From Parcubacteria group bacterium LiPW_30 (GTDB taxonomy: Bacteria; Patescibacteriota; Minisyncoccia; Phycocordibacterales; VMEP01): a DNA stretch of 64,000 nt. The position numbers and the translations under genes are program-made. Under the pieces are notes generated by a model. The model was not told the origin of the DNA and did not search any database. It worked only from the letters and a program-made list of their open reading frames with translations. Positions 14,569-45,973 of this stretch are shown here, piece by piece. The DNA lies in assembly GCA_007375595.1 (NCBI GenBank), contig VMEP01000001.1, forward strand, positions 178,816 to 242,815, in the 5' to 3' direction. The stretch's first letter is position 1. Each line of letters begins with the position of its first letter.

Positions 14569-14722
14569 AAAAGAGATGTTTGTTTGGAGTATTATAATGG
14601 GTAAAACTAAAAATGGAACGTGACAAAAAAATGCTTTTATGTTAATAAGGTGTGAACAAGTTGGTGATTCTAAAACTAGAACACATTTGTTTTGTCTTTA
14701 GTGTTAATCTATAATCAATCTT
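14569..14722. promoter_or_regulatory. dnaA upstream region / divergent rpmH promoter region with DnaA-box-like tgtgaacaa
   Basis: Intergenic region between divergent dnaA and rpmH, a common oriC/regulatory location. One 7/9 DnaA-box-like sequence. Confidence 0.25.
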
Positions 14723-16744: not shown

Positions 16745-18010
16745 CTAGAGGGATAAAAGCCAGAGTGAGTTGTCTGTCTTATTCAAAAAAACCAAAGTAT
16801 CACCGTTTTGGTTTATTTGCATAAGTGTCGCATCTATTTGTTCCCTTGAGATTTCGCGTAGGTTTATAAGTTGGTCAGTGGCGCCCGATTCCGTGTCTAT
16901 TTTCCAAATAGTATCAGAGAAATTAATTAATCCTTGATACCAAGAATCAGGATAACCGTCGGCAGTTCTGGGGGTAGATTCTGGAACAGCGCAATAAACA
17001 TCAATATTGTTTGAGTACCAGACACATTTTTCAGAAAGTGTTGCTAACCCAAAGGAGTATGAAGCTTTTGTTTTTTTAATAAGAATAGACAAGGGTGATC
17101 CATATTCGGTATTCTCTGAGAAAAGAACTCTACTTCCATCCGGTGAGGTTAATGTTGTGAGTCCGTATTTTCCCCCAAGAATTTTTGTTAGAGATGAATT
17201 TTTTGTGGTTATTGAGTAATCAAAACCAAAAACAAAAGAAGAAGGTTTAGTGTTAAGTGAAATTAAGTCGGTTGTTACCCATTGAGGGAGCCATTCAGTG
17301 AAAGATGACTGGAATATTTGTGATTTTTTCGTACCATCAAATAATGAAATAGTTCCAACAGATAGTCCTCCGTAATTAGATAAAGTGAAAATTTTTAACT
17401 TATCAGGAGAAACTGCTATTTGTTCTATATCTTCATCTAAGAAAGATCCAACAAGAATCCCCTCATCTGTACTGGTTGCTTTAGGTGAAATTTTTCCAGA
17501 AAATGTTTGAATGGAATCGCTATCTTCTTTTTGGTATCTAAGCAAAACCTGTTCTCCTTTGTCCGAAAAAATAGCTTCATGTATTTGTGGAATGGTTGTA
17601 TTGCTTACCCTTTTTTTCTCAAGACTAGCTGTGTTTACTTCTTGAATGTGACCATTCCCTTTTTCTACATAACGGACAATAGTTGAACTCCCTTTTTCAA
17701 AAACAATAAACCCGGCTACAGGAGTGTCGGATATCTTTGAGAGCTTGACCTTCCTTTGTTCGTTTTGGTTTTGGTTATTTGTTGTTTGTGATGAGTCACC
17801 CGTGCCTGTTGTGTCTCCCCCTCCGCTTGTTGGCTGTTTTTCAAAAATACCAAAAGGGAAAAATCCGTCGTTGGTGCTGGTTTCTCCATTATTTGATTTT
17901 TGGGTTAGAAAAAACCAACCTGCTCCTGCAAAGGCGACCAAAATCAAGGAAAGAATTATTGCGAGTGTTGTTTTTGTGGGCATTTTATTTAAGGTGTTCT
18001 TACGTGCCAA
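16745..18010 (-). CDS. membrane-anchored (N-terminal TM) extracellular protein; last gene of T4SS-like operon
   Basis: 421 aa. N-terminal hydrophobic anchor then Gly/Thr-rich linker. Overlaps the upstream gene by about 20 nt (operonic). Confidence 0.5.
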   Translation of the reverse strand: MARKNTLNKMPTKTTLAIILSLILVAFAGAGWFFLTQKSNNGETSTNDGFFPFGIFEKQPTSGGGDTTGTGDSSQTTNNQNQNEQRKVKLSKISDTPVAGFIVFEKGSSTIVRYVEKGNGHIQEVNTASLEKKRVSNTTIPQIHEAIFSDKGEQVLLRYQKEDSDSIQTFSGKISPKATSTDEGILVGSFLDEDIEQIAVSPDKLKIFTLSNYGGLSVGTISLFDGTKKSQIFQSSFTEWLPQWVTTDLISLNTKPSSFVFGFDYSITTKNSSLTKILGGKYGLTTLTSPDGSRVLFSENTEYGSPLSILIKKTKASYSFGLATLSEKCVWYSNNIDVYCAVPESTPRTADGYPDSWYQGLINFSDTIWKIDTESGATDQLINLREISREQIDATLMQINQNGDTLVFLNKTDNSLWLLSL

Positions 18011-18870
18011 TGAGCATCATTTTCGTTGTAGAAAGAGCCACCAAATAGAATACATGTTTCCCCTATTTTTGAACAAGTATTTGAGTTTGCTCTGGTACTA
18101 GTCTCCACCCCTTTTTTTATTATATATTCTGATATTTTTACTCCAGAACTATTTTTCCCAATATCAACAACAGGACGACCTTGTCCATGTGTTTTGTGTT
18201 TCCACCACTCGGTTCCGCCACTTATGACGATTTTGCAATCACCACCACAGGCCTTTTTTAAAGTAGAGAGAAAAGAGATTGTTGATGTTGGAAGTAATCC
18301 CACATTTGTACAATTATTTTGACCATATGATTGGCATGGAGGATTATTAATCTCAATATTAGCGGCCTTAAGTAGGGCTCTAACCCTATCCTCGTCTTTT
18401 AAAATAGCCTCTAGTTGTTCTTTGTTTTCAGCTTTAACAAAAGGAGTAGAAACAGCTCCTGTGGTGACTCCGCTTGTCGGTGCGCCAGCAGGAGGTTTAA
18501 TAATATCCAGTTTGAGACTGACGATGTCTGGATTTATTGTGTATAGAAAAACGTAAATACCGAGCGCAAGAATTAGGCCTAGTATCGCTCCTTCAATTTT
18601 TGATTTAGCGTCTCCTATTTTAAACGGAGACTCGCTTGCCATATATTGAATTCCACCAATAACAATCTGGATAACCGCAAGCCCAGCAGCCACCCCAATA
18701 CCAATTTTAAAAACAAGATTAAGATAGTCAGAAAAAGGCTTACCGCCGGTCGTATTGTATGTACCGTTATAAACGCTCGGTTCAAGTAAGGTATATTCTG
18801 TTTGAGCAAAAACAAAAGGAGGTAAAGTAAAAAAAGTTAGCAGTAGTGTGGTTAAAAAGAAATTTTTCAT
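17989..18870 (-). CDS. VirB2/TrbC-like pilin domain (signal peptide + two TM helices) fused to a Cys-containing C-terminal domain
   Basis: Signal peptide then two hydrophobic helices separated by a short charged loop, the topology of T4SS pilins. Extra ~170 aa C-terminal domain of unknown family. Confidence 0.4.
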   Translation of the reverse strand: MKNFFLTTLLLTFFTLPPFVFAQTEYTLLEPSVYNGTYNTTGGKPFSDYLNLVFKIGIGVAAGLAVIQIVIGGIQYMASESPFKIGDAKSKIEGAILGLILALGIYVFLYTINPDIVSLKLDIIKPPAGAPTSGVTTGAVSTPFVKAENKEQLEAILKDEDRVRALLKAANIEINNPPCQSYGQNNCTNVGLLPTSTISFLSTLKKACGGDCKIVISGGTEWWKHKTHGQGRPVVDIGKNSSGVKISEYIIKKGVETSTRANSNTCSKIGETCILFGGSFYNENDAHWHVRTP

Positions 18871-18871
18871 T

Positions 18872-19873
18872 TTATCTTCCTTTAAAGTTTAACATAAGGT
18901 TATTAGTTGCCGAGAGCAAGATTTTAGATGGACTTGTTACTTCAAGAGAGACGTTTGCTTCTCCTCCGACTCCTGTTTGTTGTCTAACAACTAAAATATT
19001 TGGATTTTTACTGTTCGTCGCTACAGGGCTACCATTAAGAGACCAAGTATATTGTATTTTACTGCTGGTTTTGTCTCTTGGAGAAATAAAATATGGTTCT
19101 GCAACTAAAGAAAGTTCTTCGTTCGAAAGATTTATAGAATTAAATAGGGACTTATTGTATAAAACTCCCAATATTGGGTTTTTTTCGTAAAATAAAATTT
19201 TTGGATCAACAATTCTAATAATGACCCCTCCTTTCCCTATTTTTACATCAGAAGTATTTCTTGTTTCTACCCCAATCGACTCCTCTCTTTTAAGATAGTC
19301 ATTTTTAAGAGATAACGTTGAAGCCCCTCTTCCAGAAAGAGAGCCGAGTATTTCGCCGTTACGACTCCATTTGTACGAAAGCTCGCTAGTTTTATAAGCG
19401 ACACCGTTACTTTTAAAAACACTAGGGACAATCGTGACTTTTATCGAAGACTCTGAGGTCGGCAAGGCTTTTCCTTTATAAAACGGCGGGGTGTAGATGT
19501 CGGTTGCTTCCCAAAGAATATCAACCTCTGATGGGTTTATGGTTGCGGTATCGCTCAAGAAGGTGTTTCCAAGAGTTGCAGTGGCAACTACGGTTGTTTT
19601 CTCGCCAACACCCTTTGTTTTGAAGGTGATTGATTTTTGTCCAACATTGGAAGAAAACTTTTTTCCATCCAAAGACCAAGAAATGCTTGCGATATCTAAA
19701 TTAACAGAAGGGCTAGAAACAGAGGCTGTAACTTCTTCATAAGCACCAGGTATTTCAGGTGAAATCTTAATAAAGAGGACGCTGTTGGTTTGTGCTTCGG
19801 CAATAATAAAAAACGAAAACAAAAAGATAGGGATTATTGCTTTTATGAAGTTGAGAGAATAGTTATTTTTCAC
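18872..19873 (-). CDS. secreted protein (signal peptide), unknown function, T4SS-like operon
   Basis: 333 aa, N-terminal signal. Gap to the downstream operon gene is 1 nt. Confidence 0.5.
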   Translation of the reverse strand: MKNNYSLNFIKAIIPIFLFSFFIIAEAQTNSVLFIKISPEIPGAYEEVTASVSSPSVNLDIASISWSLDGKKFSSNVGQKSITFKTKGVGEKTTVVATATLGNTFLSDTATINPSEVDILWEATDIYTPPFYKGKALPTSESSIKVTIVPSVFKSNGVAYKTSELSYKWSRNGEILGSLSGRGASTLSLKNDYLKREESIGVETRNTSDVKIGKGGVIIRIVDPKILFYEKNPILGVLYNKSLFNSINLSNEELSLVAEPYFISPRDKTSSKIQYTWSLNGSPVATNSKNPNILVVRQQTGVGGEANVSLEVTSPSKILLSATNNLMLNFKGR

Positions 19874-19938
19874 AAAAAACGCATTAAAGCTTGTTACTTA
19901 TTATAACCAAAAATCCCTTGCTAACCAAACAAAACAGG

Positions 19939-21771
19939 TTAGTTTGCGTTAGTTTGTTCCTCGACGGTACCAAGCTCTGCTTTGGCTTTTTTAATAGCGA
20001 GCACTTGTGATGGGTCGGAGGTGATTATTTGATCTTCCGTGTAGGAAGCGACAATTTTTAAAGCCACGTGTTTTAGTCCGGCGAAAAAGATACCCTCCCC
20101 TATACCAGACTCAAGAAGAAGGTATTTTTCTTCATCTGTTAGATTGAAGGTCTTTTGAACCACGTCAATAGAAGAAGGAGACTGCTTTAAGAGAAGCTGG
20201 ATAGAAGAGTTCGTGATAATAGGAAGACCATAGGGAGATTTAAGGAAATCGCCAACGTCCTGGGTAATTGTGGCAAGTCCTAAATAGTATTTACGTCCAC
20301 GTTTTGCAATACTGAAAAGAAAAGAGGCGGTATCTTCAGACTTCATCATCCACCAAGCCTCATCAACAACCAGGAGGCGTTTTTTGAGGTTTTTACGAAC
20401 GGCGTTCCAGATATAGTGGGTGACAATATACATCGCGACAGGCTTCAATTCATCTTCCATGTCACGGACAGAAAAGACCACGAACTTTTTGTTGATATCA
20501 ACATTGGTTGGTTTGTTTATAAAACCAGACCAAGTTCCTTTGGTGTATTTTGAGAGTTTTTGAAGAAGCTCTCCGCTTCCTTCCATTCCAGCGAGCACCA
20601 TTTCAAAGTCAGAAAGTAATGGAGGCTCAATCATTGAAAAATCTGAATCAGCGGTAATATCTTTCAGTGCGTATGTTTCAGTAATTGCGCGGTCTATAAG
20701 GGAGTCTTCTCCTGGTGAAAGACCACCGAGCATAATACGAAACAAACCAACAAGATTTACGATATTTGAACGTAAAACATCAGCCGCAGACTCGTCCTCT
20801 CTTGGAATAGGAAGATCAAATGGATTTATGTGATTTTCTGAAGTTAGGGAAATATTGAAATAACGCCCACCTGTTGCCTCGGCTAGATATTCATACTCCC
20901 TTTCTGGGTCTATTACGATAACTTCCGTATCAAACATTAAAGTACGAATTATTTCTAGTTTTGTGGTATACGATTTTCCAGAACCTGATTTAGCAAAAAT
21001 AATTGAATTGTAGTTTTCAAGTGAATAGCGATCAAAAAGAACAAGACTCGAATTGTGGCGGTTTATTCCATATAAAATTCCACGATCAGAAGTGAGGTCA
21101 AAAGAAACGAAGGGGAAAAGAGAAGAAAGAGGAGAAGAATTTAATTTAGAGTGAACACCTAATTCGTCTGAGGCTATTGGAATAACGCTTTTAAAACCTT
21201 GTTCTTGTTGGAAAAGAGCTGGTTTAACATAAACAAGTTTTGATTCAAGAATAGATTTTATTTCCGTCTCTGTTTTATCAAGCTCTGCCTCGGTGGCGCC
21301 ATAGATAGTGAGATAAAGACCAACGTCGAATATTTTTTCTTGCGCTTGCTGTAAGGAGTCGCGTAAGGCTTCTAGGTCTTGATATGCAGTATCAAGCATA
21401 GGGTCACGAACCATGCCTTTTTCTTCTCTCATGTGAATTTGGCTCTGAACTTCAGCAACCTTTTTTTGAAAAGTATGAAGAATTTTTGCCGTTTCAATCG
21501 GGTGAATGAAGATGGAAACATCAAAGACCTTGTCTAGGTTTATGATTGGAGAAAACCAGTTGTCAGCGAGTACTCTTGGGTAGGAAATAACAAAAAAGGT
21601 TCGTGCTATCTTATCCCCAAGATTTAATGCCCTTGGTTCTATTTTTAAGGCGGATGGGGCGATAATGTCGCGAAGCTCAAGTGTTGCTGCTTGGTATATT
21701 TCCTGAGGAAGAATCGGAGTAATTTCCTCCTCTTTTTCCTTATCTCCAGTTATGAAATCAAATATTCCCAT
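19939..21771 (-). CDS. VirB4/TrbE/TraC-family conjugative-type ATPase
   Basis: Walker A AKSGSGKSYTTK, Walker B LLVVDEAWWMM (the DEAW hallmark of VirB4 family). N-terminal region resembles the VirB4 N-domain. Confidence 0.65.
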   Translation of the reverse strand: MGIFDFITGDKEKEEEITPILPQEIYQAATLELRDIIAPSALKIEPRALNLGDKIARTFFVISYPRVLADNWFSPIINLDKVFDVSIFIHPIETAKILHTFQKKVAEVQSQIHMREEKGMVRDPMLDTAYQDLEALRDSLQQAQEKIFDVGLYLTIYGATEAELDKTETEIKSILESKLVYVKPALFQQEQGFKSVIPIASDELGVHSKLNSSPLSSLFPFVSFDLTSDRGILYGINRHNSSLVLFDRYSLENYNSIIFAKSGSGKSYTTKLEIIRTLMFDTEVIVIDPEREYEYLAEATGGRYFNISLTSENHINPFDLPIPREDESAADVLRSNIVNLVGLFRIMLGGLSPGEDSLIDRAITETYALKDITADSDFSMIEPPLLSDFEMVLAGMEGSGELLQKLSKYTKGTWSGFINKPTNVDINKKFVVFSVRDMEDELKPVAMYIVTHYIWNAVRKNLKKRLLVVDEAWWMMKSEDTASFLFSIAKRGRKYYLGLATITQDVGDFLKSPYGLPIITNSSIQLLLKQSPSSIDVVQKTFNLTDEEKYLLLESGIGEGIFFAGLKHVALKIVASYTEDQIITSDPSQVLAIKKAKAELGTVEEQTNAN

Positions 21772-21776
21772 AATGA

Positions 21777-22439
21777 TTATTGATTGAGCTTTATAGCTTT
21801 TTCTGTTTCCCCTGGGTTAAAAATTTTATAAAAAACCTCAATAACCTCTTCTGTTCCAAGTTGGACGGCCCTAACCCCAAAGCGGGATAAGCCTTGTGCG
21901 ACAACAGAAACACGTTGGTCGAGCTGAGAACGACTTTCTTCAAAAAGTTCTGATTCTGCGATTCTTGATTCCGCGGTAGGTTCTTTCTTGCTATCCATCC
22001 CAGGAATAGGGGGAAGTGAAAAACCACTACTGCCTTTTCCACCAAGAGACGGTGCGCTATACGGAACAACGATAAAGAAATTTTTAGTCATAATATTTCT
22101 TGTTTCCGCTAGATTCTTTATAAAATCGATGTATTCACGAGTCTGTATTTTAAGGAGGTCTTCTAGTTGTTCTTTCATTCTATCCTCAAGCATTGTTATG
22201 TATGGCTTGATATCTAATTTTCGAGATTGAATAAATATCTGAATTGAAAAATCTAAAGAATTTAGAAATCCTTGAAATTGAAGAATTGTAGCGGTTTGTT
22301 CGTCTTCCGATTTTAAAGAGAGGTTTAAGGAAGAAGTCATAACAAGAGCTCTTAAAGAGCCATCTTTTAAAATAACAACTCCATCACGCACTTCTTTGAT
22401 GGGAACAAAATCCTGAGCTGCTTTTGATTGAATGGCCAT
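21777..22439 (-). CDS. hypothetical protein of T4SS-like operon
   Basis: 220 aa. 5-nt gap to the VirB4-like gene. Confidence 0.5.
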   Translation of the reverse strand: MAIQSKAAQDFVPIKEVRDGVVILKDGSLRALVMTSSLNLSLKSEDEQTATILQFQGFLNSLDFSIQIFIQSRKLDIKPYITMLEDRMKEQLEDLLKIQTREYIDFIKNLAETRNIMTKNFFIVVPYSAPSLGGKGSSGFSLPPIPGMDSKKEPTAESRIAESELFEESRSQLDQRVSVVAQGLSRFGVRAVQLGTEEVIEVFYKIFNPGETEKAIKLNQ

Positions 22440-22498
22440 TGTTTATTTTGAATCAGTATAGCAAATTTGAACCAAAACACGTGTTTACAATAATGTTT

Positions 22499-22939
22499 TT
22501 ACTCCTCTTTGCTTGTGTTTAGAACATCGAGCCCCCAAGAAAGGTCCTTTAGTTTACTGTCAGATAGTTTTGGTACTAAAGAATTTTCTGAAGATTCTTT
22601 AGTGGCCTTTTTTGTTATCTCCATTGGGCGATTTTCTTTTTTCCAAATATATAATTTTTCTCCAAAATAATAACGAAAAGCTGCCTCAACACTGTTAATA
22701 AAAGGTTTCTCGTTTATTTTGTAGAAAGCTAGAGCAAAAGCTAGAGCTATTACTGGTATCACAAAAAACAAGGTTATTACTAGAGGAAGAAAGGCATCTA
22801 AAATTTTATATACAACAAAAGCCATACCAGCTCCACCGGCTAAATAAACGAACTGTTTAAAAGTAAAAGGACCAAAAATTTTATCTTCTACTTCTATGAA
22901 TTGAGGAACACGAAATTGCATCTTTTTATTATAACGCAT
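22499..22939 (-). CDS. PrgI/VirB3-like small membrane protein (two TM helices)
   Basis: 146 aa. N-terminal FRVPQFIEVEDKIFGPFTFKQF followed by two TM helices, resembling Gram-positive PrgI/VirB3-type proteins. Located upstream of VirB4-like. Confidence 0.45.
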   Translation of the reverse strand: MRYNKKMQFRVPQFIEVEDKIFGPFTFKQFVYLAGGAGMAFVVYKILDAFLPLVITLFFVIPVIALAFALAFYKINEKPFINSVEAAFRYYFGEKLYIWKKENRPMEITKKATKESSENSLVPKLSDSKLKDLSWGLDVLNTSKEE

Positions 22940-22962
22940 TCCTCATATAGAGCGAGAGAAAA

Positions 22963-23703
22963 TTAAACCTGCTCTCTGTAGGGGTCTAGCTGATAGGTAC
23001 TCTCTTTTTTAGGGATAGCAAAGTCGTTAGTTAGTTTTTCGGCGACAATGTTTTTAACTACGGGTGTTTCTTGTATTATTTTTTCTGATCCCTCTTTTCC
23101 ACTTTCAAGCTCAACTTTTATGTCTGGTTGATTGATTTGCAAGACTTCTTTTTTAGGAGGTAAACTTCTCTCCTCTGCTTTTGTTGGAGTTTCAATGTCT
23201 TTTAAGACTGTTTCTCTATTTAGGTTTTCACCCGCTTCGGTAGCTAGTTGTTCATTGTCAACAATCTCTATTCCACTTTCCCTAAGTATTGTTTTATCAA
23301 TTGGTTCTAGGGTTATTTGTACACCACTTTCTTGTGGCAGAGAATTTTCAGAAATATTGCTATGTTTTATTTCAACCATCTCGTCTGTGTTGTGAATTTT
23401 CTTTAGTGATTCACGAATTGAGTCAAAAATCTGTTCGTTGATATCGTGAACGATTAATTCCGCTACATCTTTTGTTACATTGAGTTTTGATTGAATAATT
23501 TCAGAAAAATCATTAGGTTTTGTAAGACCAAACATAACTAAATTTGTTTCATCAACTAAGATTGAGAGCTTGTCTATATGAAGGGAATATTTTGCTCCAA
23601 TATTTCTTATTTTTGAGCCAGTATCAAACCCAAAAAGAACACCTTTAACATCCTCAGGGAGAGATTCAAGCATTTGTTCTAATTGTTGGTTGGTGTAATC
23701 CAT
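22963..23703 (-). CDS. acidic hypothetical protein of T4SS-like operon
   Basis: 246 aa, operonic spacing. Confidence 0.5.
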   Translation of the reverse strand: MDYTNQQLEQMLESLPEDVKGVLFGFDTGSKIRNIGAKYSLHIDKLSILVDETNLVMFGLTKPNDFSEIIQSKLNVTKDVAELIVHDINEQIFDSIRESLKKIHNTDEMVEIKHSNISENSLPQESGVQITLEPIDKTILRESGIEIVDNEQLATEAGENLNRETVLKDIETPTKAEERSLPPKKEVLQINQPDIKVELESGKEGSEKIIQETPVVKNIVAEKLTNDFAIPKKESTYQLDPYREQV

Positions 23704-23726
23704 AGGAAGACTTAGTTTACCTTAAT

Positions 23727-25949
23727 TTACTTCTTTTTTTCGCTACCACCGTCGTCTTTTTTCTTGCTTTCCCTGTCTCTTATTAGATCAAGTTTGTTTA
23801 TATAGTTTTGGAGTGTTCGCGCGTTTGTTTTTGCCATCTCTCTTTCAAGGATTAATTTTGCACGGGCATCTTTGTCTGCCCCCTTGCCAAGGTCTTCAAG
23901 TTCTACGCTTATAGTAGCGGCTTGTTTTGTAAAATTATCAATGGCGTCTTTTACTGAGCCATGGCTACCCATTAATTCTTTTATGGTTTCTTCTAGACCC
24001 GCAATTTCTCTATCAGCTTTGTATTTCTGGTCTATTTCTTTTTCTGCCTTTTTGGTTCCACCGGTATCTCCTATTTTAAGGCTTTGTGGAATAATCTCAC
24101 CTTTTCCAGTTTTTAGTTGGTCAAAATATTCTTTTTGTCTTTCTTGGGTTGTAGTTCTTTGTTTGTCTACCTCGGCTACCTTAAGTTTTTCTGCTCTTAG
24201 TTTATTTACTTCCTCAGAACTTTTACCTGCTTTTTCCGCATCTGTTAAGTCGATACTGTTAATTTCTTTGGTGGTTAGTTTGACCTTCTTAGCTTCAAGA
24301 AGTTTTGCCATCTCAACTCTTTCTTTTCCTAACGCTTCCTCTCCTCGTTTAAGATCTCCCCTGTAGCCATCCTTTAGATTTTCTGGTTTTTTGCCTAAGT
24401 CTAATTTAACGTCAGCAATTCCGGCGAGTTTTGATGCCATACCACCAACAAGAGGTATTTCTCCGGCGGCGCGAACATCAAAACTTGATTTAGCAACACC
24501 TTCGGTCGTCTGTAGTGCGAGGCGACCAACCTTGCTATTTGACGCCCAACCCTTGAAGTTTTCACTTCCCGCAAGTGCGGCAGCCCCTCGTCCGAGTATT
24601 TGTTTTCCAGCAAAACCACCAACACCGCCCACCACAGCCCCAGCTACTGTCATCAACCCGCTAGTTATTGTTCCACTAAGACCATCACATTTTGCGACCT
24701 TGTAAGACGCAATAAGAAAGAAACACACAAGGAAATAACTGAAAATAACAGTTACGCTAGTTGGGGATAAGTCACCGGTGGCTGTCATTCCAGAAAGGGC
24801 ATCGTTTATCCCTTTTCCAGACTTAACAACATTAACAGAAGAAAGAATTTGTAAAGAAACCCAAATGAGCAGAAAGTAGATCGGCGCAGAGAGCGAGTTG
24901 CAAATAAGCTCTTTCCACCATTTGTCAGTGTACTCTTTCAGTTTAGGTAAAATACTACCCAGAAACATAATTGGAGAAAAAGGAAGAAGAAAAATAAGAA
25001 CAGCAGTTCTTGCTATAAAAAGAAATGACGCTTGGAGAAAGATGAAAAACATAATAAAAACCATGACGGCTGTCGCCCACATTTGTGTAGTAACACCCCA
25101 TGCTGTTCCAGCGACTTCTTTTCCAGAGAACATTGTTTCTGCGTCAAATTTCTCCATAAATGCCCCACTAATGCCCACTGCCCCATTGTTTGTTATGGAA
25201 GAATAAAATTGAACAGCGACGATATTTGAGGTGTCGATAATTACTTTCGTAAAAAATAAACTAAAATTAACAAGGAGTGCCGCGAGAATAAGTGTTGGTA
25301 TGAATTTTTTTGCATCGCCTATCTGGAGAATATTTGTAATAGAAACCCAGAGCAACATAAATATAAAAAGAATATTTCCCAAATCTCGGATGGTGCTCCA
25401 GGCGATATTGATTCCATTATTAGATTGCCCAATAAGGGTACCCATTTCAAAGAGACTGAATTTTACTGCAAAATCAAATATTTGCCCGGCAAAACTAACT
25501 AGGAAGGTAAGAATTGTCAAAATAGCGTAACCAAAACCACGGGCGATACAAGCACCCCAGTTTTTAAAAAAACCATTAAGACTAGAACAAGATGCTGTTT
25601 CTTCTAGTGGATCAAAAGCAGAGGGAGGAAGTGTTTTTGCTGTTTCTGCTTGAACACAATTAAGATATTTACCAGAGTTTACGTCTTTAAGATAGGCACA
25701 GGCTTCCTCCGGGGTCATTGAAGTATTTAATGTTGCACCAGAATCCAGAGCTTTTGTTTGGTTATTTCTGTTTTCAATGTCAGTAGGAAGAATACAAGCA
25801 CCACCGTCTGGGTCATCCACAAAAGGTGCTTCGCAAGTCTGCGCACTTACAGTGTTTTCGATAAACAGTGGAAGTAAAAGAAATAGTGAAAAACTAAAGA
25901 AGAGTATTACTGAAAAATTTATTAGTTTTTTAAAAGAAAAAGATATCAT
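23727..25949 (-). CDS. VirB6/TrbL-like polytopic membrane protein with N-terminal secreted Cys-containing domain and C-terminal K/E-rich coiled-coil tail
   Basis: Signal peptide, about 6 predicted TM helices in the middle, charged C-terminal tail. Architecture resembles VirB6-type channel subunits. Confidence 0.4.
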   Translation of the reverse strand: MISFSFKKLINFSVILFFSFSLFLLLPLFIENTVSAQTCEAPFVDDPDGGACILPTDIENRNNQTKALDSGATLNTSMTPEEACAYLKDVNSGKYLNCVQAETAKTLPPSAFDPLEETASCSSLNGFFKNWGACIARGFGYAILTILTFLVSFAGQIFDFAVKFSLFEMGTLIGQSNNGINIAWSTIRDLGNILFIFMLLWVSITNILQIGDAKKFIPTLILAALLVNFSLFFTKVIIDTSNIVAVQFYSSITNNGAVGISGAFMEKFDAETMFSGKEVAGTAWGVTTQMWATAVMVFIMFFIFLQASFLFIARTAVLIFLLPFSPIMFLGSILPKLKEYTDKWWKELICNSLSAPIYFLLIWVSLQILSSVNVVKSGKGINDALSGMTATGDLSPTSVTVIFSYFLVCFFLIASYKVAKCDGLSGTITSGLMTVAGAVVGGVGGFAGKQILGRGAAALAGSENFKGWASNSKVGRLALQTTEGVAKSSFDVRAAGEIPLVGGMASKLAGIADVKLDLGKKPENLKDGYRGDLKRGEEALGKERVEMAKLLEAKKVKLTTKEINSIDLTDAEKAGKSSEEVNKLRAEKLKVAEVDKQRTTTQERQKEYFDQLKTGKGEIIPQSLKIGDTGGTKKAEKEIDQKYKADREIAGLEETIKELMGSHGSVKDAIDNFTKQAATISVELEDLGKGADKDARAKLILEREMAKTNARTLQNYINKLDLIRDRESKKKDDGGSEKKK

Positions 25950-25953
25950 GCTT

Positions 25954-28146
25954 TTAGTATGTTTGTGGAAGGTTTTGTTTTTTTCTCTCTTCTTCCGCTA
26001 AAATTTCTTTATGCTCCGCTTCACAAGAGGTAATCATGCTTTTTGTTGTGTCACGAATCGTTCTTGCTTGGGACAATTGAGAGGAAGCGTTTGTCACCAC
26101 GTCAGAACTAGGGATTCTCCCTGAGGTCGAGATATTTATTAATTCGCCGGCTGCGGATTGGTAATCAACATCTTTTTTAGCAACAGCATCTTTAAGGGTA
26201 TATAGATCAATCATTGTTCTTGCTGCTGTTTCAATTTCGCTATCTAGGCTTGTTATTGCTTGGTTGTATAAAGTTGCTCTGTCGAAAAGAGAAGCTACCC
26301 CAGAGTTTGATTGATTTGCAAGGTTGCTTGGACAGTAAGTTACAGGCCCTAGTTTTATTAGAGAATCGGTTGCTACGGCTGCTTCGGAGGTAACGTTGCG
26401 GAGTTCGTCTATGATGGTGACATAAGCAATTAATGAGTTTGCTGTTTTTTCTATGCTATTAACAACATCGTTTGAAGAATTTATTTCTTGGTTTGAGATT
26501 TCTCTTGCCGTGGCGTTATTGTCGGTAGTATCCCAGAAAGACGAGTTTGAATCTGTGAGATAGTTTTGGAGTGCTAAGTCTGCCGTAGAAATTGTTTCGT
26601 TTGAGTCTGCTCCGATGTTGCCAGCGTTTCTTTCTGGGGCTGTTGCGGCAGAGCGAAGTTTTTCTTCGATAACTGATGCCGGAGTAATAACTTTATATTT
26701 TCGACAAGCCCCAGAGGTGGCGTCTACTTCCACACACTCTTCTATTGGCGAAACACCATTAACTAGTTTGTTTTTTGCCTCCTCTGATTTTTTGTCTTGA
26801 TCTTCCTGATAAATTCTTTCTGTGGCAACAAGGTACCCAAATCTGTTGTTTGATTCAATTTGGGTTAAGTTGTTCCAGCCTTTCCATCCACCAGCGGAGA
26901 AATCACCATTGCGAAATTTTGCAGCATTCGCTGAACCAATAATACTTGGGAGGCTGTCATTTAAGGCGCTTGCACTATTTGTAGTATTTTTTGCCTGTTC
27001 ACTGCTTACGATATTTTTTATTGCTTCATTTTTATAAGGAGAATTGCTCTTTGATAAGTCAGAGAGGAAAAGTTTTGTTTGGTTTTGTGTTTGCTTAAGC
27101 AAGTAATCATTCATGTTCGTGACATAAAGAGGGTTACCATTATTCCCTGTGTTTAACCAGTTGCGGATATTGTTTTCCATCTTAGCTCTTGTTATTAAAG
27201 AGCTCGTGTAAGAAAGTCTGTTTAGGCAAGTTTCTTTTGTTTTAAGAATACTCGTGTCTTGCTGAAGAGTGTTTATTTGTTTAACAATTGTTTGAGGGTC
27301 TGTTGGAACGGGGCCACTGCCTCCTATTAAAGAAAGTATTGAACCAACCCCAGGAATAGCACTAGCGCCACTAAACATAGAGCCTAATTCTCCTGCTGTA
27401 TATCCAGCAGACATTCCGCCGAGAGTATTTCCAAGACTAACCAAGCTACCAGAACCAATAGTTCCACCTAAATCTATGAGAACATTGGAAACGGCGTTTG
27501 TTGCACCAGAAAGTAGATCGCTTGATAAAGCGCTCGTTACTAATTTATCTGCTCCGCCAACAATAGCGCTTGTTCCAGATTGAATTGCACCACTAATACC
27601 ACCCGCTGAACTATCCGCTCCACTTACAGCTTGGTTAATTCCTTGGTTTATAGCGCTTGTTGCTCCGGTTACTGCGGTATTGGCGGCTTTATCTACGATA
27701 GAACCAACAGCACTTCCAACACTATTCCCTATTTGGCCACCACCGAGGGCGCCACTTATAGCACCAGAGGCGGAAGAACCAAGCCCACTTATTCCTGCCC
27801 CACTAATGAGTTGTTGTCCAAGAGAAGAAAGAGTGTTACCGATTGCTCCGCCGAGCGCGGTACACCCAGAGTTTCCCAGTGTTTCAGCCATAGATTCGTT
27901 GGAGGAGTTTAGACTTTTTCTTGTATCGAGAGCCTGGGTTTCTGAATCCCTGTTATCTATATCAGACGGAAGAATACAAGAACCTGGACTTGTTGGGTCA
28001 TCAACGAAACCGTCTGTACAGCCGTCAACTTCTTGAGCCTTGGCGTTGTTTGTATTAAAAAATGACGGCGAGAGAATAATCAGAGAAACAAGAATCACCG
28101 AAATTATTTTTTTTACCATATTCCTTTTAGCAGAAAATAGAACCAT
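25954..28146 (-). CDS. large secreted Gly/Ser/Ala-rich repeat protein; N-terminal domain paralogous to that of 23727..25949
   Basis: Signal peptide. Shared motif FVDDP..G.CILP.DI.NR...T.ALD with the downstream gene. Long GxxGxxS low-complexity region. Confidence 0.5.
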   Translation of the reverse strand: MVLFSAKRNMVKKIISVILVSLIILSPSFFNTNNAKAQEVDGCTDGFVDDPTSPGSCILPSDIDNRDSETQALDTRKSLNSSNESMAETLGNSGCTALGGAIGNTLSSLGQQLISGAGISGLGSSASGAISGALGGGQIGNSVGSAVGSIVDKAANTAVTGATSAINQGINQAVSGADSSAGGISGAIQSGTSAIVGGADKLVTSALSSDLLSGATNAVSNVLIDLGGTIGSGSLVSLGNTLGGMSAGYTAGELGSMFSGASAIPGVGSILSLIGGSGPVPTDPQTIVKQINTLQQDTSILKTKETCLNRLSYTSSLITRAKMENNIRNWLNTGNNGNPLYVTNMNDYLLKQTQNQTKLFLSDLSKSNSPYKNEAIKNIVSSEQAKNTTNSASALNDSLPSIIGSANAAKFRNGDFSAGGWKGWNNLTQIESNNRFGYLVATERIYQEDQDKKSEEAKNKLVNGVSPIEECVEVDATSGACRKYKVITPASVIEEKLRSAATAPERNAGNIGADSNETISTADLALQNYLTDSNSSFWDTTDNNATAREISNQEINSSNDVVNSIEKTANSLIAYVTIIDELRNVTSEAAVATDSLIKLGPVTYCPSNLANQSNSGVASLFDRATLYNQAITSLDSEIETAARTMIDLYTLKDAVAKKDVDYQSAAGELINISTSGRIPSSDVVTNASSQLSQARTIRDTTKSMITSCEAEHKEILAEEERKKQNLPQTY

Positions 28147-28151
28147 AGTTT

Positions 28152-29093
28152 TTACGGCTTTGTACTGTTAAGTATAACACCACTTTTAAAATATATCTCT
28201 AGTGTTTTGGCTGTTTCTATTATTTTATTACTAAAGGAAAGGTACTGATTGATTCCTTGCATGGAAAGAAGAGGATCTTCAAAAATTTTTCCAGCTATTT
28301 TTAGAGAGTCGGCGGTTCCTTTGTAACTGTTTATTAAATCAAGGTGAATTGTGGCAATTTTATCTGGCACCGGGATCTTTAATGTCTCTTTGGTGATGTT
28401 GGTGTAGGCGTCTATATAAGGAATAAGCTTTTTAGGTAGTGTTTTGTCCCCTGTTTCAAGAGCGGTTGAAATGAGCGGAAGCTCTTGGCCAAGATTATAT
28501 TTTGAGTATTTTTGAATCACCGCCCCGAGAGTTTTCCCATACGCCAAAATTTCTGCGTCGCTAGCATTTTTTAAGACTGAAATATCGTTCATTGTATATG
28601 AGGGAGATATTTTTTCTTGTTTTACGTTTGAATATATGGTTTCTGTGGCATTTTTTATGGATTGAGCACTTAATTGTCCAGTATTTTTAAGAGCAGAAAC
28701 AGCAACGAAAAACTGTTGTCCAAATTGATCAGTTGTATTTATGTTTTCTTTAGTTGGTACCTTGCTGTCATTTTGCTTACGAACTTCAATTGAATCCGTT
28801 ATTCCATTATCGTTTGAGTCTTGTTTTTCAGGATCCGTCCCGTAAAGCGCCTCTTCCCAGTCTTTTAAACCGTCCTTATCGCTGTCTTTGTTTATTAAAT
28901 CAGCAACAGAAGAAGAATCAGCTCCCCCGTTGATTACTAAAACACTTTGTTCCTCCTCTGTCGTGTTTATAATCGGCGATTTATTGTCTTCGTATCTTGA
29001 AAAAAGCGATAAGACAATAATGCTTATACCTAAAATAGACGCCCCGACTAATTTTTTGTTCTGAAAAAAGCTACGCACTAATTGAGAATTCAT
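28152..29093 (-). CDS. N-terminally TM-anchored protein with DxDxDG calcium-binding-like motif; first gene of T4SS-like operon
   Basis: 313 aa. DSDKDGLKDWEEALYGTDPEKQDSNDNGITD resembles thrombospondin type-3/dockerin-like Ca-binding repeats. Confidence 0.5.
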   Translation of the reverse strand: MNSQLVRSFFQNKKLVGASILGISIIVLSLFSRYEDNKSPIINTTEEEQSVLVINGGADSSSVADLINKDSDKDGLKDWEEALYGTDPEKQDSNDNGITDSIEVRKQNDSKVPTKENINTTDQFGQQFFVAVSALKNTGQLSAQSIKNATETIYSNVKQEKISPSYTMNDISVLKNASDAEILAYGKTLGAVIQKYSKYNLGQELPLISTALETGDKTLPKKLIPYIDAYTNITKETLKIPVPDKIATIHLDLINSYKGTADSLKIAGKIFEDPLLSMQGINQYLSFSNKIIETAKTLEIYFKSGVILNSTKP

Positions 29094-29231
29094 ATATTAC
29101 TTAATTATAGCAAGGAAATTATAGTTTTTTTATAAATTTATAGATTTGTGTGGATATGTTTTGCTTTTTCAAAGTTTTTTTGTTCTGAAAGAAAAAAAGA
29201 CAATAATCTTTTCGGTTGCTATAATGATTTT

Positions 29232-44600: not shown

Positions 44601-44608
44601 TATGAATA

Positions 44609-44725: not shown

Positions 44726-44775
44726 TGTTTTATTTGAACTTATCTTAATCTCTGTTAAAATACGTCGATAAAAAT

Positions 44776-44846: not shown

Positions 44847-44850
44847 CAAA

Positions 44851-44890: not shown

Positions 44891-44891
44891 T

Positions 44892-45956: not shown

Positions 45957-45973
45957 CAATGTAACTAAAGTTT

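What the first reader, a model, noticed from the sequence alone, without database searches (positions are those of the whole stretch)
16745..29093. Ten-gene minus-strand operon: VirB4-family ATPase + PrgI/VirB3-like + VirB6-like + pilin-like + large secreted proteins, without VirD4 or relaxase (T4SS-like, possibly a DNA-import or host-contact apparatus)
All ten genes are on one strand with 1-60 nt gaps or overlaps. Components seen:
- DEAW-type VirB4 ATPase (19939..21771).
- Small two-TM PrgI/VirB3-like protein (22499..22939).
- Polytopic VirB6-like protein with a charged tail (23727..25949).
- Signal peptide + two-helix VirB2/TrbC-like pilin domain, unusually fused to a ~170 aa Cys-containing domain (17989..18870).
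- A 730 aa Gly/Ser-rich secreted protein whose N-terminal domain is paralogous to the VirB6-like protein's N-terminal domain (shared FVDDP..G.CILP.DI.NR...T.ALD).
- A Ca-binding-motif membrane protein (28152..29093).

No coupling protein (VirD4), relaxase, oriT-like nick site or VirB11 is seen in the window. Minimal VirB4+VirB6 systems lacking VirD4 are known to act in DNA import in archaea and some bacteria (established knowledge, named loosely: Ced/Tdt-type systems). For a putative episymbiont that must scavenge nucleotides or DNA, this is a plausible role (inference).
Basis: partly seen in the sequence, partly recalled or inferred. Interest (0 to 1): 0.65.

Follow-up and report, generated by a model that had tools for sequence, protein, structure and literature searches.

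The report
Patescibacterial chromosomal type IV secretion operon
This is the origin-proximal type IV secretion gene cluster that ultra-small Patescibacteria (here a Parcubacteria/Paceibacteria genome) carry in place of a conjugation system; the cluster type has been described, and its only unusual feature here is a pilin-like membrane hairpin fused to a probable cell-wall-cutting enzyme.

Summary
Ten co-directional genes (16745-29093, minus strand; gaps -22 to +65 nt) encode a split VirB4 ATPase (TrsD-like N-domain plus a 610-aa ATPase), PrgI/VirB3, an extended VirB6/TrbL-like channel protein, one VirB2-like pilin hairpin fused to a 150-aa Cys/His domain, and five accessory envelope or cytoplasmic proteins.

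The 64-kb window holds no VirD4, relaxase or VirB11. The block lies between jag/yidC/rnpA/dnaA/dnaN and ksgA/uvrD. Its GC content equals that of the rest of the window. Gene order and flanks recur in about 80 species-level Patescibacteria genomes, so it is a fixed chromosomal locus and not an ICE.

This system, including the dnaA/ksgA/rnpA context and the missing relaxase, is already published (Wang 2023, Cell; Quinonero-Coronel 2025, Microb Genom; a 2025 FEMS review). In Saccharibacteria it is essential for epibiotic growth. Substrate and direction remain unknown, and DNA import is a published hypothesis.

What I add: in this clade the pilin hairpin is almost always a carrier for interchangeable wall-hydrolase heads (VanY, M15, NlpC/P60, SLT, YkuD). 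The head in this window belongs to a family of at least 2,271 clusters with no Pfam model and an invariant H-x7-D...HxH signature. That signature points to a LAS-type peptidase, but the fold evidence is inconclusive.

Verdict: a correct rediscovery of a known system.

The parts
28152..29093 (-). First gene of the operon (313 aa). N-terminal membrane anchor, one TSP3-type Ca-binding repeat (DSDKDGLKDWEE), and a conserved helical extracytoplasmic domain. Accessory envelope protein of unknown role.
   Evidence: One TM-like segment at 13-34. TSP3_bac 22 bits, E 1.5e-4, below cutoff. TSP3_bac matched 15 members of a pooled scan, attributed to the 27 orthologues of this gene. Found at the same position in 36 related loci.
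25954..28146 (-). 730-aa Sec-type secreted or anchored protein. Signal/anchor, a Cys-bracketed ~40-aa motif shared with the VirB6-like protein, a ~200-aa Gly/Ser-rich region, and a conserved core of unknown fold. Probably a surface-exposed, fast-evolving component.
   Evidence: TM-like segment at 9-33. Motif shared with the next gene, E 9e-14. No Pfam or PDB match. Some orthologues add Bact_surface_Ig-like and F5/8 type C carbohydrate-binding domains. Only 6 homologues found by word search. Median 28% identity in 30 loci.
23727..25949 (-). Extended VirB6/TrbL-like polytopic channel protein (740 aa) with a 280-aa charged, probably coiled-coil, C-terminal tail.
   Evidence: Several hydrophobic segments between residues 133 and 419. 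11 of 40 homologues hit PF04610 TrbL; PF19590/PF04610 are precomputed on many homologues. Invariant W184, R188, D189, N228-F-S230, R314, P326, P335. Tail composition. Present in 64 loci.
22963..23703 (-). 246-aa cytoplasmic acidic protein. ~95-aa helical N-domain, a disordered linker, and an invariant C-terminal DPYRE(P)I peptide. Possibly an adaptor or docking factor (inference).
   Evidence: No TM segment, 30% charged residues. No Pfam or NCBIfam hit. Alignment A8 shows the invariant D240, P241, Y242 and E244 tail. Present in 42 loci.
22499..22939 (-). PrgI/VirB3-like small membrane protein (146 aa; 140 aa in metagenome gene calls). By analogy it anchors VirB4 to the membrane.
   Evidence: PF12666 PrgI, 45.8 bits against a cutoff of 27, E 9.3e-12. 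Hydrophobic stretch at 37-77. Present in 81 of 83 loci at a median 52% identity.
21777..22439 (-). TrsD-like protein (220 aa): the N-terminal domain of VirB4 encoded as a separate gene.
   Evidence: NCBIfam TrsD NF041427 2.6e-8. Matches positions 102-233 of VirB4_plasma and 2-118 of the CD1110 VirB4 model. Precomputed PF26593 TraC-like. Separate from, and directly upstream of, VirB4 in 82 of 83 loci, so it is not a frameshift.
19939..21771 (-). VirB4-family ATPase, middle and C-terminal motor part (610 aa), of the MPF-FATA / CD1110 type.
   Evidence: NF045971, 373.9 bits against a cutoff of 325. P-loop_TraG 1.7e-25. Walker B LLVVDEAWW. 77-86% identical to the 80 best loci kept out of more than 540 relatives detected in Patescibacteria genomes. 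More conserved than DnaA in 51 of 51 genomes.
18872..19873 (-). 333-aa membrane-anchored protein with three ~105-aa Ig-like beta-sandwich repeats. Extracytoplasmic scaffold or spacer (inference).
   Evidence: TM-like segment at 5-28. Invariant W66, W169 and W277 at ~105-aa spacing. Weak BiPBP_C/PKD hits here, and BiPBP_C, Ig_3 and Big_2 hits in a pooled scan that I attribute to its orthologues. Weak PDB Hoc/NAR hits. Present in 80 of 83 loci, nearly always directly after VirB4.
17989..18870 (-). VirB2-like pilin hairpin (signal peptide 1-22, helices ~46-78 and 82-117) fused through a disordered linker to a 150-aa Cys/His domain (143-293). The domain is a probable LAS-type Zn peptidoglycan peptidase. 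It is the only pilin-type gene in the window.
   Evidence: T4SS_pilin PF18895 matches all 25 homologues; this protein scores 20.8 bits. Mbov_0395 pilin 6e-5. Invariant C179, C187, H225, H228, D236, H287 and H289. AF2 model of the C-domain: pLDDT 90. The C-domain family has 2,271 clusters and 129 of the best 150 carry the hairpin. SLT fusions exist. Proteins at the same syntenic position carry VanY, M15, NlpC/P60, SLT or YkuD heads. Single hairpin in the window.
16745..18010 (-). Last gene (421 aa from the TTG; 412 aa from the ATG at 17983). N-terminal membrane anchor, a low-complexity linker, and a probable beta-propeller (TolB/PD40-like) domain with two invariant Cys.
   Evidence: TM-like segment at 10-37. 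The ortholog profile hits TolB 7mx5, E 0.0075. Single weak DPPIV_N and PD40 hits in a pooled scan, attributed to its orthologues. Invariant C320, W322, C331 and W348. Present in 65 loci at a median 35% identity.
29094..29231 (.). Divergent intergenic region upstream of the operon, with two TATAAT boxes 13 and 25 nt before the first ATG. Putative promoter (weak evidence).
   Evidence: Sequence read directly. The consensus promoter scan of the region was not above chance, so this is inference only.

Best explanation
This is the Paceibacteria (Parcubacteria) version of the chromosomally fixed, conjugation-derived (MPF-FATA-type) type IV secretion system found across Patescibacteria.

Shown:
- A split VirB4 motor (TrsD plus the ATPase), a PrgI/VirB3 anchor and an extended VirB6 channel protein form the cytoplasmic-membrane core.
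- Six further genes accompany them. Five encode Sec-type or membrane-anchored extracytoplasmic proteins and one encodes a cytoplasmic acidic protein.
- No coupling protein or relaxase is nearby.
- The block sits next to dnaA/oriC as a vertically inherited, strongly constrained locus.

Inferred mechanism:
- The VirB4/TrsD hexamer, docked on PrgI and the VirB6 tail, powers assembly of, and transport through, an envelope-spanning conduit at the contact site with the host cell, without a T4CP.
- The Ig-repeat, propeller, TSP3 and large secreted proteins build or decorate the extracellular part.
- The single VirB2-like hairpin does not act as a plain pilin. It tethers a wall-cutting head (here an H-x7-D...HxH domain, probably a LAS-type peptidase) that opens peptidoglycan (the symbiont's own, the host's, or both) for the conduit.

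The net role is host-dependent growth. I slightly favour uptake of host-derived macromolecules (DNA or other; about 0.35) over export of effectors (about 0.3). No data here decide the direction.
For: - Core assignments.
- Split VirB4 conserved in 82 of 83 loci.
- Source genome is 'Parcubacteria group bacterium LiPW_30'.
- Flanks are jag, yidC, rnpA, dnaA and dnaN on one side and ksgA and uvrD on the other.
- The order ksgA-[10 genes]-jag/yidC-dnaA-dnaN recurs in nearly all long loci among 80 species-representative genomes.
- Operon GC is 0.383, equal to the rest of the window.
- VirB4 is a median 80% identical against 60% for DnaA, and is higher in 51 of 51 genomes.
- No T4CP, relaxase or VirB11 in the window.
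- Literature: the same component set, the dnaA/ksgA/rnpA neighbourhood, the lack of a relaxase and the import hypothesis are in PMC12102498. Essentiality of the T4SS and its pilins in Southlakia epibionticum, with comEC dispensable, is in PMC10633639 and PMC12857230.
- Hydrolase-head idea: invariant Cys/His/Asp signature; confident AF2 model; proteins at the same position with VanY, M15_3, M15_4, NlpC/P60, SLT, YkuD or Amidase_5 heads; SLT plus C-domain fusions; topology places the head outside the membrane.
Against: - No expression, localisation or functional data exist for this lineage. Essentiality is known only for a Saccharimonadia species whose cluster differs (an array of six bare pilins).
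- The VirB6 call is transitive: the protein itself has no Pfam hit.
- The peptidase assignment of the pilin head is unproven. It has no Pfam hit and no PDB sequence hit. hhalign against VanY gives 0.6% probability. The best Foldseek hits are not significant (Sonic hedgehog N-domain E 0.26, phage M15A protein E 0.12).
- A T4CP or relaxase could lie elsewhere in the 680-kb genome; T4CP homologues far from virB4 are common in Patescibacteria.
- No VirB8-like component was identified.
- The loci compared were chosen by VirB4 similarity, which inflates VirB4 identity somewhat.
Confidence: 0.8

Rival explanations
1. A dedicated DNA-uptake machine analogous to Helicobacter ComB or archaeal Ced. The T4CP-less VirB4/VirB6 core pulls host or environmental DNA inward to supply nucleotides to an organism that cannot synthesise them.
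For: - No T4CP or relaxase in the cluster.
- T4CP-less T4SSs that import DNA are known (established knowledge: ComB, Ced).
- Import is the hypothesis favoured in PMC12102498.
- The VirB4 shows a weak local similarity to CedB (3.6e-9).
Against: - CedB and CedD scores are far below their cutoffs (35.8 against 700; 18.7 against 600). The ATPase is an MPF-FATA conjugative type.
- No DNA-binding or nuclease component was recognised among the ten genes.
- In S. epibionticum, competence depends on comEC and T4P, and comEC is dispensable while the T4SS is essential. If DNA is imported, it does not go through the known route.
- Nothing here indicates direction.
Confidence: 0.25
2. A protein or effector export (or hydrolase-delivery) system. 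Like the T4CP-less Ptl or Brucella VirB systems, it delivers proteins, possibly the wall hydrolase heads themselves, onto or into the host cell to breach and exploit it.
For: - Wang et al. suggest export of proteins because coupling and relaxase proteins are lacking.
- The operon encodes many Sec-dependent surface proteins.
- Heads at the pilin position are interchangeable wall-degrading enzymes that differ between species, as expected for host-facing weapons.
- Some orthologues of the 730-aa protein carry carbohydrate-binding domains.
Against: - No effector or immunity gene, and no secretion signal, was recognised.
- The hydrolase heads have Sec signal peptides and need no T4SS for export.
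- The hydrolases could serve only to open the symbiont's own wall, the ordinary VirB1 role.
Confidence: 0.3
3. An integrated conjugative element or its decayed remnant, whose relaxase, T4CP and oriT lie outside the window.
For: - The VirB4 passes the NCBIfam cutoff for a conjugal-transfer ATPase family.
- A tyrosine recombinase gene lies at 40732-41655.
Against: - Identical gene order and housekeeping flanks (ksgA/uvrD and jag/yidC/rnpA/dnaA/dnaN) in about 80 species-level genomes.
- GC content identical to the surroundings.
- VirB4 is more conserved than DnaA.
- The recombinase lies 11 kb away beyond housekeeping genes and has XerC/D-type architecture.
- Relaxases are rare in Patescibacteria.
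Confidence: 0.03
4. An adhesion pilus only. The VirB4 core merely assembles a VirB2-type filament that sticks the symbiont to its host, with no substrate transport.
For: - A VirB2-like module is present in a monoderm-type system.
- Pilins are essential in S. epibionticum.
Against: - The only hairpin gene in the window carries a 17-kDa head, and 64 of 80 hairpins in related loci have C-terminal extensions of more than 100 aa, which is awkward for a tightly packed VirB2 filament.
- A separate type IV pilus cluster in the same window (56192-60204) is the established adhesion organelle in Saccharibacteria.
Confidence: 0.1

Closest known systems
Patescibacteria-clade T4SS (Wang et al. 2023, Cell, PMC10633639: SEML1_0006-0019 of Southlakia epibionticum; Quinonero-Coronel et al. 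2025, Microb Genom, PMC12102498)
   Same: It shares the VirB4, detached TrsD, PrgI/VirB3, VirB6 and VirB2-like pilin set. It has no relaxase or T4CP next to virB4. It is chromosomal and sits next to dnaA, dnaN, rnpA, rpmH and ksgA, as reported for Paceibacteria. It occurs in a monoderm ultra-small host-dependent lineage.
   Different: The experimentally studied Saccharimonadia cluster has an array of six bare pilins plus separate peptidase and lysozyme genes. This locus has a single pilin hairpin fused to the putative hydrolase. The five accessory proteins (TSP3, 730-aa, 246-aa, Ig-repeat, propeller) are not named in those papers as far as I could read.
Gram-positive conjugative T4SS of the MPF-FATA class (pGO1/pSK41 Trs, pCF10 Prg, CTn2 CD1110 family)
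   Same: The VirB4 passes the CD1110-family cutoff. A separate TrsD is present, as in pGO1. PrgI is present. There is no outer-membrane core. A wall hydrolase is part of the system.
   Different: It has no relaxase, T4CP or oriT and is not mobile. It possesses a VirB2-like module, which Gram-positive systems lack. The hydrolase is tethered to that module instead of being a PrgK/TraG-type SLT+CHAP protein. No VirB8-like protein was recognised.
T4CP-less T4SSs: Helicobacter ComB and archaeal Ced (DNA import); Bordetella Ptl and Brucella VirB (protein export)
   Same: It works, or would have to work, without a coupling protein. It is a chromosomal, non-conjugative use of a VirB4 machine.
   Different: There is no sequence membership: CedB 35.8 bits against a cutoff of 700. 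It has no VirB7, VirB9 or VirB10 core as in ComB, Ptl and Brucella. No toxin or DNA-processing genes are linked.
Bifunctional VirB1-type hydrolases (PrgK, TraG of pIP501: SLT + CHAP) and LAS metallopeptidases (M15 VanY/VanX, M23 lysostaphin, Hedgehog N-domain)
   Same: The head has an invariant H-x7-D...HxH signature. It is extracytoplasmic. Some family members are fused to SLT. At the same syntenic position, sister proteins carry VanY, M15_3, M15_4 or Extensin-like_C heads.
   Different: No sequence or profile match to any M15 or M23 model. The fold match is not significant. An additional invariant Cys pair and a TE motif are present. The domain is anchored by a pilin hairpin.

Membership tests
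Patescibacteria-type (MPF-FATA-derived) T4SS | VirB4 ATPase of the MPF-FATA/Patescibacteria lineage | tested here: met
   NF045971 (CD1110 family), 373.9 bits against a cutoff of 325. 77-86% identity to VirB4 in the 80 best Patescibacteria genome loci. No phylogenetic tree was built.
Patescibacteria-type (MPF-FATA-derived) T4SS | Separate TrsD (VirB4 N-domain) gene next to virB4 | tested here: met
   TrsD NF041427 2.6e-8 (below its own cutoff of 200). It also matches the N-terminal regions of two VirB4 models and carries PF26593 TraC-like. The arrangement is conserved in 82 of 83 loci.
Patescibacteria-type (MPF-FATA-derived) T4SS | PrgI/VirB3 homologue | tested here: met
   PF12666, 45.8 bits against a cutoff of 27.
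Patescibacteria-type (MPF-FATA-derived) T4SS | VirB6/TrbL-like polytopic protein | tested here: met
   Met only transitively. The protein itself has no Pfam hit. 11 of 40 homologues hit PF04610 (best 4.2e-7), and many homologues carry precomputed PF19590. The polytopic hydrophobicity profile fits.
Patescibacteria-type (MPF-FATA-derived) T4SS | VirB2-like pilin gene near virB4 | tested here: met
   PF18895 matches 25 of 25 homologues; this protein scores 20.8 bits against a cutoff of 26.6. NF045849 6.3e-5. The module is fused to a 150-aa domain.
Patescibacteria-type (MPF-FATA-derived) T4SS | No relaxase or T4CP adjacent; chromosomal position near dnaA, ksgA and rnpA | tested here: met
   Pfam scans of the window ORFs of 100 aa or more and conserved flanks. 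The rest of the genome was not available.
Patescibacteria-type (MPF-FATA-derived) T4SS | Required for host-associated growth | not testable with these tools
   Known only from Tn-seq in S. epibionticum.
Conjugative element (ICE or plasmid T4SS) | Relaxase, coupling protein and oriT linked to the mating-pair genes | tested here: not met
   No relaxase or T4CP is encoded in the 64-kb window. oriT was not searched for. The remainder of the genome was not examined.
Conjugative element (ICE or plasmid T4SS) | Mobile: variable insertion site, integrase, deviating composition | tested here: not met
   The same site and flanks recur in about 80 genomes. GC content equals the surroundings.
Ced DNA-import system (archaeal) | CedB/CedD-type ATPase with CedA, CedA1 and CedA2 membrane proteins | tested here: not met
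   CedB 35.8 bits against a cutoff of 700; CedD 18.7 against 600. No CedA-family match was reported in the NCBIfam scan of the ten proteins, but whether that library holds CedA models was not checked.
VirB2/TrbC pilins | Signal peptide plus two-helix hydrophobic hairpin | tested here: met
   Hydrophobic segments at 3-22, 49-78 and 90-117. AF2 helices at 46-78 and 82-112. PF18895 match.
VirB2/TrbC pilins | Small mature subunit that polymerises into a filament | tested here: not met
   The mature protein is about 270 aa with a folded 150-aa C-terminal domain. Polymerisation itself is not testable here.
LAS-type Zn peptidases (M15/M23/Hedgehog-like), for residues 143-293 of the pilin fusion | Conserved H-x(3-7)-D and H-x-H metal-binding signature | tested here: met
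   H228-x7-D236 and H287-x-H289 are invariant in 25 homologues. An HxH lies within about the last 15 residues in 142 of the best 150 family representatives.
LAS-type Zn peptidases (M15/M23/Hedgehog-like), for residues 143-293 of the pilin fusion | Sequence or profile similarity to a known LAS family | tested here: not met
   No Pfam hit in 25 members. No PDB profile hit. hhalign against the VanY domains of related pilin-VanY fusion proteins gives 0.6% probability.
LAS-type Zn peptidases (M15/M23/Hedgehog-like), for residues 143-293 of the pilin fusion | LAS fold | tested here: inconclusive

The most novel reading that the evidence does not exclude
In Paceibacteria the VirB2-like module of the T4SS is not a filament subunit. 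It is a conserved membrane (or pilus-base) carrier onto which lineage-specific cell-wall-degrading heads are swapped. These include a family of at least 2,271 clusters with no Pfam model and an H-x7-D...HxH signature, which would be a new LAS-like peptidoglycan peptidase. The head would be the host-wall-breaching tip of the secretion system, and its exchange between species would track host range.
Probability: 0.3. Interest if true: 0.6.

Novelty: already known. Interest (0 to 1): 0.33.

Why it matters
Patescibacteria make up a large share of bacterial diversity and mostly live attached to other microbes. This T4SS is one of the few machines shown (in Saccharibacteria) to be essential for that lifestyle, and its substrate and direction are still unknown. 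The locus adds no new kind of system.

It does show how tightly constrained the motor is: VirB4 is more conserved than DnaA across about 50 genomes. It also shows how variable the outward-facing parts are. The hairpin-tethered hydrolase heads give a concrete, testable handle on how the apparatus gets through peptidoglycan and perhaps on host specificity.

Tried and rejected
- Full-length AF2 model of the pilin fusion against PDB: only spurious histidine-kinase-like matches with rmsd above 20 Å, caused by the helix hairpin plus alpha/beta domain. I re-modelled the C-domain alone.
- Profile searches of the head, VirB6, Ig-repeat, propeller and 730-aa families against PDB sequences gave nothing or only weak hints.
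- hhalign of the head against the VanY domains of related pilin-VanY fusions aligned only the H..G..D motif, at 0.6% probability.
- The promoter and terminator consensus scan was not above the shuffled expectation, so it gives no evidence about operon structure.
- I tested whether the N-terminal motif shared by the 740-aa and 730-aa proteins is a general feature. It is not: no FVDDP-type motif occurs in the other loci, and there is only marginal N-terminal similarity in a few. I treat it as lineage-specific duplication or gene conversion rather than a defining domain.
- I searched for additional pilin genes in the window with a hairpin HMM and tblastn and found none.
- The ICE idea was rejected on synteny and composition.
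- Ced membership was rejected on NCBIfam scores.
- A literature search for the MAG name (LiPW) was uninformative.
- A word-based homologue search with the 730-aa core found only six close relatives and no names.

Full report
**What is there.** Ten ORFs lie on the minus strand between 16745 and 29093, with neighbour gaps of -22 to +65 nt.

Pfam and NCBIfam scans identify these components:
- 19939-21771 is a VirB4-family ATPase. NF045971 'VirB4-like conjugal transfer ATPase, CD1110 family' scores 373.9 bits against a cutoff of 325, and P-loop_TraG gives 1.7e-25. Walker B is LLVVDEAWW.
- 21777-22439 is the detached N-terminal VirB4 domain. It matches TrsD/TraD at 2.6e-8, matches positions 102-233 and 2-118 of two VirB4 models, and carries precomputed PF26593 TraC-like.
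- 22499-22939 is PrgI/VirB3 (45.8 bits against a cutoff of 27).
- 17989-18870 has a sub-threshold T4SS_pilin match (E 4e-4; Mbov_0395 pilin 6e-5).
- 28152-29093 has a sub-threshold TSP3 Ca-binding repeat.

The 740-aa protein (23727-25949) has no direct hit. Of 40 homologues, 11 hit TrbL/VirB6 PF04610, and many carry precomputed PF19590 or PF04610. Its hydrophobicity profile is polytopic, and it ends in a 280-aa charged tail. All 25 aligned homologues of the pilin-fusion protein match PF18895.

**Where it is.** The exact proteins are annotated in NCBI as LiPW30_198 and LiPW30_204 of 'Parcubacteria group bacterium LiPW_30' on a 680-kb contig. They also occur in Hainich groundwater 0.1-µm metagenomes.

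The operon is bounded on one side by jag/KhpB, yidC, yidD, rnpA, rpmH, dnaA and dnaN, and on the other by ksgA and uvrD. The dnaA-dnaN spacer has 27% GC and DnaA-box-like sites, and the cumulative GC skew is lowest there. The operon therefore starts about 2 kb from the probable origin. Its GC content (0.383) equals that of the rest of the window.

Pfam scans of the remaining window ORFs of 100 aa or more found no VirD4/TraG coupling protein, relaxase or VirB11. The two T2SSE ATPases are PilB-type with MshEN domains, and one heads a type IV pilus cluster.

**Is it an island?** No. A scan of one genome per GTDB species found more than 540 VirB4 relatives. The best 80 are 77-86% identical and all come from Patescibacteria MAGs (Paceibacterota, Parcubacteria, Taylor-, Campbell-, Nomura- and Zambryskibacteria, and some labelled Saccharibacteria).

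tblastn of all ten proteins and the flanking genes against these loci shows the same order, ksgA-[TSP3, 730-aa, VirB6, 246-aa, PrgI, TrsD, VirB4, Ig-repeat, pilin, propeller]-jag/yidC/rnpA-dnaA-dnaN, in nearly every locus long enough to show it.

Conservation falls steeply from the motor to the surface. Median identities are VirB4 80%, TrsD 60%, PrgI 52%, pilin 39%, propeller 35%, Ig-repeat 32%, the 246-aa protein 30%, VirB6 29%, TSP3 28% and the 730-aa protein 28%. In all 51 genomes where both could be measured, VirB4 is more conserved than DnaA (80% against 60%). The loci were chosen by VirB4 similarity, which biases this upward somewhat. The picture is of a vertically inherited, strongly constrained core locus, not an ICE.

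**What is known.** This system is published.
- Wang et al. 2023 (PMC10633639) showed by Tn-seq that the T4SS cluster of Southlakia epibionticum is essential for epibiotic growth. It resembles Gram-positive conjugative systems, has essential pilins, and lacks recognisable coupling and relaxase proteins.
- Quinonero-Coronel et al. 2025 (PMC12102498) surveyed Patescibacteria. They found VirB4 in a distinct clade related to MPF-FATA, with TrsD, PrgI/VirB3, VirB6 and VirB2-like proteins widespread and relaxases rare. In Paceibacteria and Microgenomatia, dnaA, dnaN, rnpA, ksgA and rpmH lie near virB4. They proposed import of DNA or other macromolecules.
- A 2025 FEMS review (PMC12857230) lists these systems as newcomers to the T4SS superfamily.

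Its loose 'Ced-type' analogy fails as membership: CedB scores 35.8 bits against a cutoff of 700.

**The accessory proteins.**
- The 333-aa protein after VirB4 has an N-terminal anchor and three ~105-aa repeats, each with an invariant Trp. Weak Ig-like hits support this (BiPBP_C, Ig_3, Big_2; PDB Hoc).
- The last gene encodes an anchored protein whose ortholog profile weakly hits the TolB beta-propeller (E 0.0075). Single DPPIV_N and PD40 hits appear in a pooled scan and I attribute them to its orthologues.
- The first gene's family carries TSP3 repeats: 15 TSP3_bac matches in the pooled scan, attributed to its 27 orthologues.
- The 246-aa protein is cytoplasmic and acidic. It has a helical N-domain, a disordered linker and an invariant C-terminal DPYRE(P)I peptide.
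- The 730-aa protein has a conserved core without any Pfam or PDB relative. Some orthologues add Bact_surface_Ig-like or F5/8-type-C domains, which suggests surface exposure. It evolves fast.
- Its N-terminal Cys-bracketed motif shared with the VirB6-like protein is real (E 9e-14). It is restricted to this genome's lineage.
- No VirB8-like protein was recognised.

**The pilin fusion.** The protein has a signal peptide, a VirB2-like two-helix hairpin, a disordered linker and a 150-aa C-terminal domain. AF2 gives pLDDT 76 for the full length, and 90 with pTM 0.84 for the C-domain alone. With a cleaved signal peptide and a Lys-rich loop between the helices, the head is predicted to lie outside the membrane (inference).

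C179, C187, H225, H228, D236, H287 and H289 are invariant in 25 homologues. This gives an H-x7-D...HxH pattern like that of LAS-type zinc peptidases; that comparison rests on established knowledge of the M15, M23 and Hedgehog families.

Direct tests of that assignment did not succeed:
- No Pfam hit.
- No PDB profile hit.
- hhalign against VanY at 0.6% probability.
- Only non-significant Foldseek hits. The best-TM ones are Sonic hedgehog N-domain (E 0.26, TM 0.38) and phage lysin-type proteins, including a 'Peptidase M15A' (E 0.05-0.12).

Context evidence is stronger:
- Proteins sharing the hairpin carry VanY, YkuD, SLT or NlpC/P60 domains.
- At the same syntenic position in 56 related loci, Pfam finds VanY (3), NlpC/P60 (3), M15_3, M15_4, SLT, YkuD, Amidase_5, Extensin-like_C and a subtilase (1 each). 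The window-type HxH head appears in 9 of the 63 proteins at this position, two of which are the window's own sequence on metagenome contigs.
- A hairpin HMM finds one hairpin gene in most of these loci. Sixty-four of 80 hairpins have C-terminal extensions of more than 100 aa and only 10 are bare.
- The window has only this one hairpin gene.
- The head profile retrieves 2,271 clusters at 50% identity (1,468 at E <= 1e-10). Of the best 150, 129 have the hairpin upstream.
- Two hairpin-less members are SLT plus head fusions. That is the two-enzyme architecture of Gram-positive VirB1-type hydrolases.

I conclude that the head is probably a peptidoglycan hydrolase tethered by the pilin hairpin, acting as a VirB1 analogue or host-wall-breaching tip. 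The enzymatic class is not established. I found no mention of such fusions in the three papers read or by full-text search. That is not proof of novelty.

**Mechanism.** The component identities, their conservation, the chromosomal fixation and the lack of linked conjugation genes are shown. The rest is inferred. TrsD/VirB4 on PrgI and VirB6 would power a T4CP-independent conduit. The Sec-exported accessory proteins would build the extracellular part. The hairpin-tethered enzyme would cut peptidoglycan. The apparatus would serve host-dependent growth. Direction and substrate cannot be decided from sequence. I put import of host macromolecules at about 0.35, export or delivery at about 0.3, adhesion only at about 0.1, and an ICE at about 0.03.

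**Verdict.** This is a correct and well-described rediscovery of a known system in a Paceibacteria genome, hence 'already known' with modest interest. The most novel reading still open is the modular pilin-carrier and hydrolase-head idea, together with the Pfam-less head family.

Noticed in passing
window 56192-62120 (+): A type IV pilus cluster: PilB-type ATPase (583 aa, T2SSE + MshEN), PilC (T2SSF), two prepilin-type N-methylation-motif proteins (59205-59705, 59710-60204), and two unknown ORFs (181 and 456 aa). T4P is the other machine known to be essential for epibiosis in Saccharibacteria. Here it lies 27 kb from the T4SS.
   Followed up: partly
window 3104-4804 (+): A second PilB/GspE-type T2SSE ATPase (566 aa, MshEN domain) stands alone upstream of ruvB. 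It is not VirB11-like in size or architecture.
   Followed up: no
window 12982-13218 and 14569-14720: Probable oriC. The dnaA-dnaN spacer lies in a 27% GC stretch with DnaA-box-like sites at 13034 and 13190, and the cumulative GC skew is lowest at 12-14 kb. If replication starts here, the rpmH-rnpA-yidC-jag genes are co-directional with the rightward fork. The T4SS operon would then be transcribed head-on to the fork, which is unusual for a supposedly highly expressed locus.
   Followed up: partly
window 19939-21771 vs 13219-14568; loci L004-L083: VirB4 is more conserved than DnaA in every one of 51 genomes where both were measured (median 80% against 60% identity). DnaN, YidC, KsgA and UvrD are at 44-54%. 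The loci were selected by VirB4 similarity, so the gap is somewhat inflated.
   Followed up: partly
window 17989-18870 residues 143-293; proteins P0177-P0317: The C-terminal Cys/His domain defines a large family: 2,271 clusters at 50% identity with E <= 1e-3, and no Pfam model. It is nearly always C-terminal to a T4SS_pilin hairpin. Rare members are fused to SLT instead (P0182, P0208), and one cluster member is labelled as from an 'archaeon' MAG from a Tara 0.1-0.22 µm sample.
   Followed up: partly
window 22963-23703 (-); alignment A8: The cytoplasmic 246-aa protein and its orthologues end in an invariant DPYRE(P)I peptide after a long disordered acidic linker. They also share short SGIEI and RExxLxxIExP motifs. 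This looks like a set of short linear docking motifs.
   Followed up: no
window 29148-29570 (+), likely start at 29232: A small divergently transcribed ORF encodes a signal-peptide-bearing, Cys-containing protein of about 112 aa with no Pfam hit. It is conserved next to the operon in about 6 related loci.
   Followed up: no
window 32723-33715 (+): A LysM + Peptidase_M23 protein lies 3.6 kb upstream of the operon, beyond ksgA and uvrD, and is found in the same place in 4 related loci. M23/LysM proteins were counted among VirB1-like candidates in PMC12102498. It could equally be a cell-division hydrolase.
   Followed up: no
window 23727-25949 and 25954-28146, N-termini: The ~40-aa Cys-bracketed motif (C..FVDDP..G.CILP.DI.NR...T.ALD) shared by the VirB6-like and 730-aa proteins occurs only in this genome and an identical metagenome contig among the loci examined. 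This suggests recent duplication or gene conversion between adjacent genes.
   Followed up: yes
window 40732-41655 (+) and 44529-47295: A XerC/D-type tyrosine recombinase (Phage_integrase + SAM-like N-domain) and, 3-6 kb further on, four tRNA genes (Arg-TCG, Gly-GCC, Pro-TGG, Gly-TCC). Housekeeping genes lie between them and the T4SS, so there is no sign of a link.
   Followed up: no
window 1087-2067, 2213-2863, 35927-36919, 52657-53628, 60185-62120: Several ORFs of 180-456 aa have no Pfam match at E <= 1e-3. This is typical of the poorly annotated Patescibacteria proteome.
   Followed up: no
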